A stretch of DNA of 64,000 nucleotides, taken from the NCBI GenBank assembly GCA_951406725.2, contig OX597827.1, positions 37,386,001-37,450,000 of the forward strand, read 5' to 3'. This document shows, one piece after another, positions 915 through 47,740 of this stretch. The position numbers and the translations under genes are program-made. The first letter of the stretch is position 1; every line of letters starts with the position of its first letter. The notes below the pieces were generated by a model. It did not search any database. It had not been told where the DNA came from and saw nothing but the letters and a program-made list of their open reading frames with translations. This DNA comes from Octopus vulgaris. Its lineage: Eukaryota.

Positions 915-1235
915 ATTGCAGCGTGGAAGGTGTTTGTAAGCCATTTAAGAAACACACAAAAACCGTTAGATTCACTTCAACATTTAAATTTAATTTGCCA
1001 AAATATATTCCTCGCTTTGAGACCGCGACCTGTTCACTGACAAAAATATCGTGCTAACAGGTCGCGGTCTCAAAGCGACGAAAATATTTTGACAAATTAA
1101 ATTTAAATGTTGAAGTGAATCTAACGGTTTTTGTGTTTCTTAAATGGCTTATAAACACCTTCAACGCTGCAACTGTTTTCGTTCCAGCACACGATCTCAG
1201 ATCAAGTCACTTGCTATGCATGTACATCTCTGTAA
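915..1235. mobile_element. Fold-back element with ~120 bp arms and a one-sided tail; putative non-autonomous PLE derivative
   Basis: 915-1034 is the near reverse complement of 1056-1172; same family at 44344-44615; hammerhead-like core GTGAACA on the minus strand at 1031-1037. Confidence 0.7.
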
Positions 1236-1341
1236 CTATATATATATTATATATATATATATATATATATATGTATATTGGTAAAAACAGTAAGATAACA
1301 AAAGAAAGAAAGAGACCTCAATATTATGTAAATAGAGGAAA

Positions 1342-1735
1342 TCTTTATATATAAAAGTGAGGTTGTGTGTCTGTCTCCTACGATTTAGATTCCTAACTAC
1401 TCCCACATTTTGCGGTGCAGTTTAACCAAAACCGGGTATCTTATAGTCGTGATTCATATCGAGACCGTCTGGGTATTAGCGCGCGTCTACGATGAGTCTA
1501 CGATTTAAAAAAAATTTACCATCAATTTTTCCCATTTTTAATCCATTTTTGACATATATAAGGGAAGTAACTCTCTAAAATTTATTATTAAATCTCAGAA
1601 CGTAAAAAGCTACAGTAACACCCCTCCCCCTTTGTGGTTAGCCATATTGAGATGGCTATTATACTTTACATCTCTAAAAATGCTTATATAATTATTTCCC
1701 TTACAAACCCGAACAACGCCGGGCGATACTGCTAG
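1342..1735 (+). mobile_element. Non-autonomous Helitron
   Basis: A|TC 5' end, imperfect subterminal hairpin CCCGAACAACGCCGGG, CTAG|T 3' end, no target-site duplication (TSD). Confidence 0.75.
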
Positions 1736-2230
1736 TAGTTATATAAAAGTTTTACAATGATGTCACTGTTTTATAAGAAAGAATCTTATTCTTCAAAGGA
1801 GAATCAATTATTTCATTGTAAATATATAAATACATTCCCTCATCATTATTTTGTGTCTATTTTTCATGCTGGCTTATTGGGCATCAGATGCTGCTCATTT
1901 ATGTCATTTAGGCTTGGTTTCTCTAGTTTCTAGCTGCTCTTCCTATCACCAGCCACTTAACAGATTCTACTGAATGTTTTCTTGTAGCACCAGCGCTAGA
2001 GAGGTAACTATGTCCTTAGTGAAACAGGACAAAAGGTACCTCTCAAACTTGCACTTTCTCCACTCATTAACCATCCATTTTTCACAAACTCACACACACA
2101 TACGTATATTCTAGGTTCTATGTTGCTACCCTACTAAAAACCTTTATTTTTAAACTAAAGATAGGAAAAGTTTAATGGCTGAGTTGATCAGAACATTGTT
2201 GCCATTATCGAGTTTTATAAAGATTCACAG

Positions 2231-2252
2231 ATCAAATCCAGTCCAGGATCAT
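2231..2252 (+). CDS. Putative 22-nt microexon of RING-finger gene copy 1 (IKSSPGS)
   Basis: ttcacag|ATCAAATCCAGTCCAGGATCAT|gtgagt; splice sites conserved in the paralog at 17042-17063; phase compatible with downstream exons. Confidence 0.5.
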
Positions 2253-2585
2253 GTGAGTATCAAGTCATAAGACACTTGATTGGTTGGGGATTTAACCAAC
2301 AACAATATAATGCTCATAGTAACATTATTTATACAATATGTTTATAAGATGAGACTGAAGAATTTCATCTTATTAACAAACGTTACTTGATTTGTCATGG
2401 CATTATCTTAATTGATATTTGCTTGATCCTGCTATCATTTAGTTATAATCTTAAGAGCAGTTCCAGAAATTTGATTAATGAAATGTTTTTTCCTCATCAC
2501 ATAAATATTATAGTATTATTAAATCATTCCATCACCACTACTTTAGTTATGATATCAGGAAGTGAACTTATATTTTTTTGTGTAG

Positions 2586-2598
2586 ATGGCAACCCTAG
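2586..2598 (+). CDS. Putative 13-nt microexon of RING-finger gene copy 1 ((Y)GNP(R))
   Basis: tgtag|ATGGCAACCCTAG|gtaatg; phase 1 to phase 2 joins the 22-nt exon in frame to the RING exon. Confidence 0.45.
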
Positions 2599-44060: not shown

Positions 44061-44343
44061 ATATATATATATATATATATATATATATATATATATATAT
44101 ATATATATATAAAGCTTTGAATTGTACAACAATGCACTATAACACAAACAATGGGTTATATACCTGTTGTAATTTAGTCATCCATAGTCTGATATGATAT
44201 TTGGGAATAAAATTCCTTCTTCGGATATTCTTAGATATTCTTTACAAACAATACACAAATCTTCAAGCGAACTACAATACTCTCCTATATATATATATAT
44301 ATATATATATATATATATATACACGCACGCACACACACAAACA

Positions 44344-44615
44344 GTTGCAGCGCGGAAGGTATTTATGAGCCATTTAAAAACACACAAAACCGTTAGATTC
44401 ACTTCAACACTTAAATTTAATTTGCCAAAATAGTTTCGTCGTTTTGAGACCGTGACCTGTTCACTGACAAAATTCCATGAAATTTAAATGTTGAAGTGAA
44501 TCTAACGGTTTTTGTGTGTTTTTAAATGGCTTATAAACACCTTCCACGCTGCAATTGTTTTTGTTTCAGCACACGATCTCATATCAGGTCACTTGCTATG
44601 CAAGTACATCGCTGT
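44344..44615. mobile_element. Second copy of the 915-1235 fold-back family; hammerhead-like motif on minus strand at 44421-44471
   Basis: Minus strand TTTGTCA-GTGAACA-gGTC..GAC-GAAA-ctat-TT-TGGCAAA; inversion junction differs from the first copy. Confidence 0.7.
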
Positions 44616-45540
44616 ATATGTATGTGTATATATATATATATATATATATATATATATATATATATGTGTGTGTGTGTGTGTGTGTGTGTGTGTGTGTGTG
44701 TGTATAAATATATATATATAATTTCAGCAAAACAATTTAGATTCAAAAGAATATGGTACTTAACTTAGATGCACCAGAATTTTTTATGGTATTAACCATA
44801 AAATTATATGGGGTGATTATAACCAAGAAAAAAAATATATATATATACATACATACATACACACACACATACATATATAGGCGCAGGAGTGGCTGTGTGG
44901 TCAGTACCTTGCTTACCAACCACATGGTTCCGGGTTCAGTCCCACTGCATGATACCTTGGGTAAGTGTCTTCTACTATAGCTTTGTAAGTGGATTTAGTA
45001 GACAGAAACTGAAAGAAGCCTGTCGTATATATATATGTATATATATATATGTGTGTGTGTGTGTATGCACGTGTGTTTGTGTGTCTGTGTGTGTCCCCCC
45101 AACGCTTGACACCAATGTTAGTGTGCTTACATCCCCTTAACATAGCGATTCACCAAAAGATACCGATAGAATAAGTACTAGGCTTACAAAGAATAAGTCT
45201 TGGGGTCGATTTGTTCGACTAAAGGCAGTGCTCTAGCATGGCCGCAGTCAAATGCCTGAAAGGAATAAAAGAATAAAAGAATATATTATATATATATGTA
45301 TATATATATATATATATATATATATATATATATATATATATATATGTATGTATGTATGTATATATACAAATACATATATATATATATGTATATATACATA
45401 TACATATATATATATATATGTATATACATACATATATAAATATATAAATATATATATATATATACATGCATACATACATACACACATGCATACATATATA
45501 TATATATATATATATATATATATATATATATATATATATA

Positions 45541-46702
45541 GGTGAGAAAGTTGGAGTGTGAAAGCACGTGGTTGAATATATAGAAAATAGTAAAAAGTGA
45601 AAAAACTACAGAAGGCTTGTTTAAAAAGGTTAAAAAATATATATTTGAGTCATTATGTCTGAAGAATGTTATAAATTTTTTTCATACAATGACAGTTTTT
45701 GAAGAAATGACCGGTTTCGCGTTCAGCTTTTCAAATTTCTTACATCGTTATGTTTACGTTGAGAAGTGTGAAGAAAAAGTTCCAGATAAGGGGAGGTAAT
45801 AAGTGATTTCTTCCGGTCTATGGGAGATAATCGCTTAATATTTCTTGCCTTTTTTTGGGAGTGAGTGTCTCTGTATAAGAATGTTGGAATGGTTAAGTTT
45901 GGGCTTGTATTTTTCAATGGAGAATGTTTCCTTGTTTAGTCTAATTTGTGTTGGTGTTCCGATAGCACATTGGTAAAATGGAAATATTAAAAATTGTGGT
46001 AGTAGTTGCTTTGCGCATTTCTCAATGTGCTCACTAAAGGGTATCATTCTGTATTCTGGGAATGCAATCTGTTGTCGATGCAGTGTGCATCTACGTCGGA
46101 GTGATAGTCCCGTGGACCCCACGTAGTTTTGGTGGCATCCCGAGCATCTTATGACATAAATTATGTTTTCAGAGGCACAAGTAAAATTAGATTTGATCGT
46201 GAATTTCTGTCCCTCTTTGAAGAGGAATTCTGATCCTTCTAGCAGGTTTGGACATGTTGCACAGTTCGGTCTACCACATTTTTTTACTTTTGCATCTGTA
46301 ATTTCAGAAAACAATTTTGCCTTTGTGAGAATCTTTTTAAGTGATTTAGGTTGTTTGTAGCTTTTAATGATTTGGTGTATGTTTAGAATTTTCTTAATAT
46401 TTAATATAGAAATTTAGAAAAAGGCAAGAAATATTAAGAAATATTAAGCGATTATCTCCCTTACACCGGAAGAAATCACTTATTACCTCCCCTTATCTGG
46501 AACTCTACTTCACACTTCTCAACGTAAACATAACGATGTAAGAAATTTGAAAATTTGAACGCGAATCCGGTCATTTCTTCAAAAATTATGTCATTGTATG
46601 AAAAAAATTTATAACATTCTTCAGACATAATGACTCAAATATATATTTTCTAACCTTTTAAAACAAGCCTTCTGTAGTTTTTTTACTTTTTACTATTTTC
46701 TA
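45541..46702 (-). mobile_element. 5'-truncated Penelope-like element with a GIY-YIG ORF and an inverted 5' copy of its terminal repeat
   Basis: CGRPNCATC..FTCASENIIYVIRCSGCHQNYVGSTG..IFPFY..PKLN; about 45577-45855 is inverted at about 46418-46702; ~35-nt one-sided tail; flanked by (TA)n. Confidence 0.85.
45702..45741 (-). ncRNA. Minimal hammerhead-like motif, U3-A8 core variant
   Basis: AAGAAAT-TTGAAAA-GCtgaacGC-GAAA-CCGG-TC-ATTTCTT with a 7-bp stem I. Confidence 0.6.
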
Positions 46703-47695
46703 TATATATATATATATATATATATATATATATATATATATATATATATACATGCATACATACATACATACATATATATATATATACACATATATATATA
46801 TATGTATGTGTGTGTGTGTATGTATGTACAATGTATATATATATATATATATATATAATATATATATATATATATATATATATATATATATATATATATA
46901 TATATATATATATATATACATATATATATATATAGTTTCCCTTTTAATAGCTTCACTATAAATAGTTTCACTATGCATATATTAGATACATATTGATGTT
47001 ATTGTTTAACTTTTGACACGTAATACCAAAACAGTCTAAGAGATTGCTCCGGCAAAAAGTCGAAAATTGTTTTAGCCCATGACACCGCATAGACTGAAAG
47101 TAGTGTGTGTTTGTGTAAGATTTGAATGAAACCGGTTGGGTAGTTCTCGAGTTATGGTGATGCACACATACAGACAGACAGATAGATTATATATATATAT
47201 ATATATATATATATATATATATATCTTTGTCTCCTTCCTCCTCCTTCCTAACTTTACCATTATTGCTATTTAGAATAATACCTATGCAAACTTTATTTAC
47301 AAAACATTGAAAAGAGTTGTTTCATGCATTCAACAATTACTCCTACCATCCACAACGGGTCATTTTCGGGGCAGTTGACCATTCAACATACTACTCTCAT
47401 AGCAATCCCACATTCTTCTTCTTCTTCTTCTTCTTCTTCTTCTTCTTCTTCTTCTTCTTCTTCTTCTTCTCCTCCTCCTCCTCATCCTCATCCTTCTCCT
47501 CCTTCTTCTTCTTCTTCTTCTTCTTCTTCTTCTTCCCTACCAAGAATTCACAACGACCTCGAACCCACAAGAGTAAATAAGAGAGACAGAGACAGGCAGA
47601 AACAAGGAAAATGCCACTTGTAATTTGAACACTATGCAAATATTCTTTGAAAAATCTTTTCTTTTAACTTTTCAAAAATGTAATTGTTTTCCATA

Positions 47696-47740
47696 CTTAC
47701 AGTTGAAAAAGTCTCAATGACTGAAACCGGTACTAAAATG
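47696..47740 (+). ncRNA. Hammerhead-like motif, U3-A8 core variant with a weak stem I
   Basis: AG-TTGAAAA-AGTCtcaatGACT-GAAA-CCGG-TA-CT. Confidence 0.45.

What the first reader, a model, noticed from the sequence alone, without database searches (positions are those of the whole stretch)
990..47740. Hammerhead-like motifs from unrelated repeat families show compensatory changes at the 3-8 core pair (C-G, U-A, G-C)
Seen: type-I minimal hammerhead layouts (stem I, 7-nt core, stem II, GAAA, short often palindromic stem III, UH, stem I') with cores CCGAAGA (10881-10925), CTGATGA (12375-12476 and 28370-28412, minus), TTGAAAA (45702-45741 minus; 47696-47740 plus) and GTGAACA (44421-44471 minus; 1031-1037 minus). 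Known: active hammerheads form a tertiary Watson-Crick pair between C3 and G8, and PLE terminal repeats carry minimal hammerheads. Inference: U3-A8 and G3-C8 are the compensatory swaps expected under selection for catalysis, so these families may encode functional non-canonical ribozymes that CUGAnGA-based searches miss. Rare core variants are known elsewhere; the concentration here is the unusual part.
Basis: partly seen in the sequence, partly recalled or inferred. Interest (0 to 1): 0.85.

Follow-up and report, generated by a model that had tools for sequence, protein, structure and literature searches.

The report
Transposon hammerhead ribozymes with swapped core
Several jumping-gene families in this animal genome carry hammerhead-shaped RNA motifs whose key core base pair is C-G, U-A or, in one family of more than 1,200 copies, the reversed G-C, and the pair is kept matched, which likely means the motifs are still selected to cut themselves, although cutting is untested.

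Summary
Observation confirmed at family level. The seven motifs belong to six repeat families, and the odd cores are family majorities, not decay: C3-G8 (three families), U3-A8 (two), G3-C8 (one; 94 of 100 listed copies, 1,243 exact hits). Four families are 3' ends of Penelope-like elements (RT/GIY-YIG upstream); one is a tRNA-headed SINE. The G3-C8 motif follows the ORF in 8 of 8 RT-bearing copies. Corrections: five of seven window copies are themselves damaged, and the two U3-A8 families are sisters (52% identical endonucleases), so they may be one event. Better evidence came from outside the window: one 360-bp tandem retrozyme-like family holds C-G (83), U.G (9) and U-A (8) of 100 listed copies, never C.A, and its tree runs U-A to U.G to C-G. 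U3-A8 in Penelope hammerheads is published (2014), and this scan noted it before on other DNA; engineered G3-C8 partly rescues cleavage (2024). I found no natural G3-C8 family in print, but three key papers were unreadable. Cleavage is untested, and no copy ends mark the cut site. Verdict: new variant of a known kind.

The parts
10881..10925 (+). Family F10 type-I minimal hammerhead, core CCGAAGA (C3-G8 with U4C), U.U at the base of stem II, palindromic GTAC stem III, A17 at 10920; intact
   Evidence: 95 of 100 listed pattern hits read CCGAAGA, 1,151 hits
9941..9985 (-).
   Evidence: 361-nt inverted repeat, 98%; core 9980-9974
9759..11109 (+). 5'-truncated F10 Penelope-like insertion with inverted arm; GIY-YIG C-terminus at 10288-10383; full elements elsewhere are 4,271-bp tandem units with two ORFs
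12375..12476 (-). Family F12 hammerhead, canonical CTGATGA, long stem II; this copy has lost G12; parent element not identified
   Evidence: 15 of 20 homologues C3-G8 and 15 of 20 keep G12 (alignment)
28370..28412 (-). Family F28 hammerhead, canonical CTGATGA, in a SINE-like repeat with a tRNA-like head; this copy is the three-base deletion variant that removes U16.1/N17
   Evidence: 20 of 20 ranked copies C3 and G8; 10 of 20 carry the deletion; tRNA likeness read by eye, ARAGORN finds none
45702..45741 (-). Family F45 minimal hammerhead, core TTGAAAA (U3-A8), 7-bp stem I, 2-bp stem II, CCGG stem III, C17; intact
   Evidence: 31 of 31 copies in ranked loci TTGAAAA, 1 of 2 flank-found copies U3.G8
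45835..46413 (-). GIY-YIG endonuclease end of the F45 Penelope-like element, about 100 nt upstream of the hammerhead
   Evidence: Pfam GIY-YIG E 0.004, below cut-off; 41% identical to the F10 endonuclease
46540..46579 (+). Damaged inverted twin of the F45 hammerhead (core TTGAAAA kept, stem II and GAAA hit)
47696..47740 (+). Family F47 minimal hammerhead, core TTGAAAA (U3-A8), 4-bp stem II, CCGG stem III, A17; this copy has a stem I mismatch
   Evidence: 27 of 30 ranked and 2 of 2 flank-found copies TTGAAAA; GIY-YIG upstream in L037 and L056
44421..44471 (-). Family F44 hammerhead, core GTGAACA (G3-C8), extra G after A9, G10.1-C11.1, palindromic ATAT stem III and U17 in the majority; this copy is damaged
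   Evidence: (94 of 100 listed G3-C8, none C3-G8)
44339..44616 (-). Short F44 insertion with an inverted 5' arm, between TA microsatellites
994..1044 (-). Second F44 hammerhead (core 1037-1031), damaged; a passenger within a larger composite repeat (about 292-1752), not an independent retrotransposition
   Evidence: 13 of 30 pattern loci share the same junction and flanks
14129..14267 (-).

Best explanation
These are type-I minimal hammerhead motifs at the 3' terminal repeats of Penelope-like retrotransposons and their short derivatives, in which whole families carry C3-G8, U3-A8 or G3-C8, likely because selection keeps the active-site pair needed for self-cleavage. Shown: the layouts, family majorities, the link to RT/GIY-YIG ORFs in four families, and the paired states C-G, U.G, U-A within one homologous retrozyme-like family. 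Inferred: the palindromic stem III makes two copies pair and cut as a dimer, slowly and probably with help from the element's own protein, as reported for other Penelope hammerheads; cutting would trim the element out of read-through or tandem transcripts, while the uncut RNA serves as the template for most insertions. Inferred: C-G and U-A interconvert through a tolerated U.G wobble; G3-C8 has no wobble route from either and arose once, in a distant lineage, probably at a cost in rate.
For: Family majorities with core positions left free: 97 of 100 C3-G8, 94 of 100 G3-C8 and no C3-G8; U3-A8 31 of 31 and 27 of 30 (ranked by likeness to the query). Five further families met blind in flanks have paired majorities: C-G in F179, F55 and R116, U-A in R009 and R223. 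8 of 8 RT-bearing copies of the F44 parent carry GTGAACA about 1 kb after the stop; one has an open 1,025-aa frame with GIY-YIG. In F44, subfamily-level changes fall in 4 of 8 loop II positions against 1 of 42 constrained positions, that one a tolerated wobble (p 0.0014 but possibly one block change). Retrozyme R116: 83 C-G, 9 U.G, 8 U-A, 0 C.A of 100 listed, 28/7/6 of 41 loci (Fisher p 0.0004, not independent draws); one change at each position on the tree, C-G nested 100/99, C-G-basal tree rejected p-AU 0.020 with core columns masked; 3-8 paired in 14 of 14 distinct rows, 7 of 14 pairs with two-sided change. Dimer folds form the intermolecular stem III for F45, F47, F10, R223. Papers: C3G/G8C partly rescues a Penelope hammerhead, each single change kills it (PMC11167929).
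Against: No cleavage was measured. Independent swaps are few, perhaps three. No F10 copy begins at H17+1 or ends at H17 (0 of 32); 9 of 35 F44 arm ends sit at H17+1 but 6 are explained by the self-complementary stem I and most come from a query-biased search. A deletion variant of F28 lacking U16.1/N17 has itself multiplied (10 of 20 ranked copies), and the U.G retrozyme subfamilies spread too. In vitro, hammerhead-dead Penelope RNA inserts normally and no RNA-seq ends were found at the cut site (PMC11167929). For F44 the lowest-energy dimer does not form stem III from the weak ATAT palindrome. One two-copy, single-locus descriptor hit has A3.G8 (L020). With core columns masked the G8 clade has only 87/81 support, and the tested groups were named after seeing a tree.
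Confidence: 0.72

Rival explanations
1. The fold, including the 3-8 pair, is kept for a non-cutting role, such as shaping the RNA for binding by the RT/endonuclease protein or for internal initiation; cleavage is negligible in cells.
For: Genomic copies carry the whole uncut motif; no F10 ends at the cut site; catalytic mutants insert normally in vitro (PMC11167929); low in vitro rates, with non-cleavage roles not excluded (PMC4209133); Naiad elements thrive without hammerheads (PMC8557442).
Against: All catalytic boxes (GA at 5-6, A9, GAAA, UH) are fixed together with the pair in every family majority; single 3 or 8 mutants did not affect insertion in vitro, so binding does not explain the pair.
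Confidence: 0.16
2. G3-C8 is a dead or nearly dead founder variant: two core hits in one master copy that happened to pair, then spread because the ribozyme is dispensable.
For: Only one G3-C8 lineage was found; a broken F28 variant also spread; G3-C8 cannot be reached by a wobble step.
Against: The pair is the same in subfamilies that differ at about 16 other positions and in runs of two other coded organisms; no mismatch majority was seen in any multi-locus family; a random second hit restores the pair only one time in three.
Confidence: 0.1
3. The G3-C8 motif is an accident at the centre of a palindromic DNA transposon (MITE), stem I being part of its inverted repeats.
For: Many copies are near-palindromes between TA repeats; one subfamily moves as a fixed unit (13 of 30 loci).
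Against: Inverted arms end at many different places, many copies have none, the fixed unit is a passenger in another repeat, and the motif follows an RT/GIY-YIG ORF in 8 of 8 long copies.
Confidence: 0.02

Closest known systems
Minimal hammerheads of metazoan Penelope-like elements, incl. the U3-A8 Cercyon variant of Schistosoma mansoni (Cervera and De la Pena 2014, PMC4209133; read main text parts 1-2 of 4 and supplement parts 1-2 of 3)
   Same: Type I, short or palindromic stem III, extra base after A9, G10.1-C11.1, frequent U17, position in the terminal repeat after RT/GIY-YIG, inverted pairs; the same UUGAAAA core; one U3.G8 example (Saccoglossus).
   Different: Of their 56 representatives 53 are C3-G8, 2 U3-A8, 1 U3.G8, none G3-C8 and none U4C (their descriptors fixed the core). 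Here G3-C8 and CCGA cores are whole high-copy families.
PAc hammerhead of the anole Poseidon element (Frangieh et al. 2024, PMC11167929; read parts 1-2 of 4)
   Same: Penelope terminal-repeat hammerhead; the C3G/G8C double change partly restores cleavage; copies end at fixed internal 'tail' sites, as F10 and F44 do.
   Different: There G3-C8 is engineered; here it is the natural state.
Natural U3-A8 hammerheads (Perreault et al. 2011, PMC3088659; read section 8 and passages)
   Same: Natural covariation of the 3-8 pair; 2-bp stem II and U10.1.U11.1 also tolerated, as in F45, F10 and R116.
   Different: Section 8 names only U3-A8.
Animal non-LTR retrozymes (Cervera and De la Pena 2020, PMC7229834, passages; Li et al. 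2026 preprint 10.64898/2026.07.22.740005, passages)
   Same: R116 and R009 are 360-bp tandem non-coding repeats with one type-I hammerhead per unit, like the 350-390 bp mussel repeats.
   Different: Here the cores are CCGA or U3-A8/U3.G8 rather than CUGA, and three states coexist in one family; circular RNA not tested.
Schistosome Sm-alpha SINE-like elements (promoter plus hammerhead; PMC6765202, passages)
   Same: F28 joins a tRNA-like head to a canonical hammerhead.
   Different: F28 inserts with Penelope-type inverted arms and has a widespread broken variant.

Membership tests
Type-I hammerhead ribozyme | Stems I, II and III around core boxes in type-I order | tested here: met
   Descriptor scan and alignments; stem III only as a palindrome
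Type-I hammerhead ribozyme | G5, A6, A9, G12, A13, A14, A15.1-U16.1, H17 | tested here: met
   Family majorities; five of seven window copies are damaged
Type-I hammerhead ribozyme | Literal CUGAnGA consensus | tested here: not met
   Met only by F12, F28, F55; others have U4C, U3-A8 or G3-C8
Type-I hammerhead ribozyme | Watson-Crick or wobble pair between positions 3 and 8 | tested here: met
Type-I hammerhead ribozyme | Self-cleavage at H17 | not testable with these tools
   No assay; copy ends give no clear sign
EN+ Penelope-like element (F10, F44, F45, F47) | RT followed by C-terminal GIY-YIG endonuclease | tested here: met
   F10: RVT_1 and GIY-YIG. F44: GIY-YIG by Pfam, RT by motif and weak match to F10 only. 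F45, F47: endonuclease end only
EN+ Penelope-like element (F10, F44, F45, F47) | 5' truncation, partial tandems, inverted 5' arms, tail ends, microsatellite targets | tested here: met
EN+ Penelope-like element (F10, F44, F45, F47) | Clade placement (Neptune, Nematis, other) | not tested
   CX3-4CxxC linker seen, as Craig et al. describe for Neptune/Nematis; no tree with reference elements was built
Non-LTR retrozyme (R116, R223, R009; outside the window) | Short tandem non-coding units with one type-I hammerhead each | tested here: met
   360-bp spacing in R116 and R009; R223 seen mostly as single or inverted copies
Non-LTR retrozyme (R116, R223, R009; outside the window) | Expressed as circular RNA | not tested

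The most novel reading that the evidence does not exclude
A recently mobile Penelope family uses a natural G3-C8 hammerhead, a core so far made only by mutagenesis, as a working ribozyme in over a thousand copies and several related species; and one retrozyme family preserves the full evolutionary walk of the catalytic pair (U-A, U.G, C-G), showing that selection acts on catalysis itself and that CUGAnGA searches miss a large share of animal ribozymes.
Probability: 0.4. Interest if true: 0.68.

Novelty: new variant of a known kind. Interest (0 to 1): 0.5.

Why it matters
What hammerheads do for Penelope elements is still open: they are nearly universal, cut poorly in vitro and are dispensable for insertion in one assay. 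The 3-8 pair belongs to the active fold rather than the secondary structure, so natural families that change both partners argue for selection on catalysis. This genome supplies matched natural test cases: G3-C8 in a young autonomous family, and C-G, U.G and U-A in otherwise near-identical retrozyme units. It also shows a search gap: of eleven multi-copy families met here only three have the literal CUGAnGA core.

Tried and rejected
Rfam scan: no hammerhead among the 150 of 265 rows shown; microsatellite look-alikes fill the list. DNA search for F10 returned nothing, not even the window, because common words are skipped; a pattern search worked. MITE reading of F44: rejected. Cut-site signature in copy ends: none for F10, ambiguous for F44. 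Expression of F44: no RNA holder listed; the four runs laid were contigs, which cannot show starts or ends, so nothing is concluded on expression. A splice donor for the extra AGAG seen before some short F44 copies was not found in eight long copies. The idea that the CysRS ORF was carried by the F28 element was not tested. A wide random sample of the genome could not be had; the family census rests on 243 loci plus the window (12 of them position-picked 9.9-kb stretches), so it is neither complete nor random. Papers not held: Lunse et al. 2017, Przybilski and Hammann 2007, Arkhipova et al. 2017; any could mention natural G3-C8. Literature searches for natural G3-C8; none gave a case. Rows dropped: L009 (long branch) and L271 (unparsed core) from the trees; six R223 loci unparsed were read (all U3-A8) but are not in the trees; L255 is not in alignment A1.
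Full report
Setting. The window is G000:C14:37386001-37450000 of a 2.8-Gb animal genome in 227 contigs, rich in microsatellites. Size and repeat content suggest an octopus-like cephalopod; this is my inference and was not tested.

Observation. All seven cores lie where stated. Only 10881 and 45702 are intact; the other five differ from their family majority at core or stem positions, in part by CpG decay. 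Single window copies do not fold better than shuffles, but an intact G3-C8 copy does (z -3.4). Rfam shows no hammerhead in the 150 of 265 rows listed.

Family majorities. I searched the genome for each family. F10 (10881): 1,151 exact hits with positions 3, 4, 8 free; of 100 listed, 95 CCGAAGA, 2 CTGAAGA, 2 with U8, 1 with G3. F44 (44421, 1031): 1,243 hits with 3 and 8 free; 94 of 100 G3-C8, six scattered single-copy changes, none C3-G8. F45 (45702): 31 of 31 copies in ranked loci U3-A8; F47 (47696): 27 of 30 (ranked by likeness to the query, so slightly biased). F28 (28370): C3 and G8 in 20 of 20. F12 (12375), an old family at 83-88% identity: C3-G8 in 15 of 20. The odd cores are therefore founder states, not decay. 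Listed hits are the first on contigs 1-2, not a random draw.

What the families are. F10 is a young Penelope-like element: 4,271-bp tandem units, two ORFs, the second with RT and GIY-YIG. F45 follows a GIY-YIG end in the window; F47 does so in L037 and L056. Their endonucleases are 52% identical to each other and 41% and 32% to F10, so the two U3-A8 families may descend from one swap. F44 looked at first like a MITE, but long copies put it about 1 kb after the stop of a distant Penelope ORF (22-27% to the others): 8 of 8 RT-bearing copies carry GTGAACA, RT regions are 93-97% identical across 37 full-length hits, and one copy has a 1,025-aa open frame. Most F44 copies are about 200-nt terminal pieces with inverted arms of varying length. 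The copy at 1031 rides inside another composite repeat, shared with 13 of 30 loci. In contigs of four public runs, two of them from other coded organisms, no other letter reaches 5% at positions 3 or 8. F28 has a tRNA-like head read by eye. F12's parent was not found.

Does the pair covary? A descriptor with positions 3, 4, 7 and 8 free gave 174 distinct hits in 14 clusters on 243 loci plus the window, against 5 hits in three shuffles, one of them paired. Exceptions: one two-copy hit in a single locus with A3.G8 and no stem III (L020), and a two-copy pair reading U.G and C-G (L226). Unrelated families give weak statistics, since few events are involved. The better test is R116, a 360-bp tandem family outside the window. 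With identical 35-nt context and four free positions it has 1,438 hits; of 100 listed, 83 are C3-G8, 9 U3.G8, 8 U3-A8 and none C3.A8, or 28, 7 and 6 of 41 loci. I fetched 20 of these loci and 20 R223 loci. With R223 as outgroup the tree runs U-A, then U.G, then C-G, one change at each position; with the four core columns masked the C-G clade has 100/99 support, the G8 clade 87/81, and a C-G-basal tree is rejected at p-AU 0.020 (groups named after the first tree). Position 4 changes with position 3 (UU to CC); the canonical CUGA is absent from the 100 listed. On a 16-row alignment the 3-8 pair is formed in all 14 distinct rows and 7 of 14 pairs show two-sided change (related rows inflate this). 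Within F44, subfamily differences lie in loop II (4 of 8 positions) and avoid the 42 constrained positions but for one wobble.

How it likely works. From published work: metazoan Penelope hammerheads cut weakly and as dimers (PMC4209133); in the anole element C3G or G8C abolishes cutting, the double change partly restores it, cutting needs the element's protein, and insertion does not need cutting (PMC11167929); G8C costs 100,000-fold and C3G partly rescues (review PMC8495972, passage). Here, predicted dimers form the intermolecular stem III for F45, F47, F10 and R223 but not for F44, whose ATAT palindrome is weak. I infer slow, assisted cleavage that trims transcripts, with uncut RNA as the usual insertion template. 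That fits the copies: they keep the whole motif, F10 copies end 142-170 nt past the cut site and none of 32 starts at it. C-G and U-A can exchange through U.G, as R116 shows. G3-C8 has no such route, and how it crossed an inactive state is unexplained.

Against. Nothing was assayed. The independent swaps number perhaps three. A broken F28 variant spread (10 of 20 ranked copies), so an intact ribozyme is not needed by every family. The 9 of 35 F44 arm ends at H17+1 are mostly explained by stem I microhomology.

Comparison and novelty. U3-A8 is known in nature (PMC3088659 section 8) and in Penelope hammerheads (about 1,300 hits); among 56 representatives in that paper's supplement 53 are C-G, 2 U-A, 1 U.G, none G-C. 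U4C is known from a viroid (passage). Searches for natural G3-C8 found only engineered cases, but three central papers were not held, PDF figures were only partly legible, and the preprint's supplements are closed. A 2026 octopus repeat annotation does not mention ribozymes (PMC13282606, word search). Earlier notes of this scan report U3-A8 Penelope hammerheads in other genomes and a first-reader claim of G3-C8 in a phage; I did not check their DNA. Verdict: a real, known kind of motif; the natural high-copy G3-C8 family and the preserved three-state walk are the new parts. Interest 0.5.

Noticed in passing
window 28912-31167 (-): Uninterrupted 751-codon frame for a cysteinyl-tRNA synthetase (Pfam tRNA-synt_1e, E 3.7e-118); an intronless gene or retrocopy, with a palindromic F28 hammerhead insertion starting about 90 nt past its stop.
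   Followed up: partly
G000:C1:42384643 (L116) and G000:C4:97912472 (L223): Retrozyme-like 360-bp repeat family, at least 1,438 hammerhead copies, holding C-G, U.G and U-A cores; positions 3 and 4 change together (CC or UU). Young tandem arrays are all CC.
   Followed up: yes
L224:7120-7165; L228:6850-6895: Just upstream of the G3-C8 hammerhead the parent has a branch-point-like CTAAC, a pyrimidine tract and YAG; short copies mostly start at this point, several with an extra AGAG not found upstream. A 3' splice site or a start site; Drosophila Penelope has an intron ending at stem I.
   Followed up: partly
window 28290-28820: F28 is a very abundant SINE-like repeat (3,715 first-look candidates) with tRNA-like head, hammerhead and Penelope-type inverted arms; a variant lacking the cleavage-site bases is widespread.
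   Followed up: partly
window 292-1752: Composite repeat carrying an F44 palindrome, a SINE piece and 107-bp tandem units, 97% identical between loci; one end resembles a Helitron terminus (recalled, not tested).
   Followed up: partly
L121 (G000:C1:27839500-27849400): F10 has two overlapping ORFs (about 430 aa and 775 aa, the second without a nearby start codon), suggesting a frameshift or splice; tandem units are nearly identical, so it is probably active.
   Followed up: no
window 2599-3027 (+) and 17411-17824 (+): Two similar RING-finger coding pieces (Pfam E about 1e-8), probably a local duplication.
   Followed up: no
window 12335-12520: Has a 100% identical twin, with its inverted partner, at G000:C15:621285 although the family is old: a recent segmental duplication or assembly duplicate.
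   Followed up: no
window 15927-16240 (-) and 32364-32768 (+): Two further GIY-YIG remnants of Penelope type with no hammerhead found beside them.
   Followed up: partly
window 49900-51670 (+): GC-rich stretch with integrase-like frames, probably an LTR retrotransposon piece (read, not tested).
   Followed up: no
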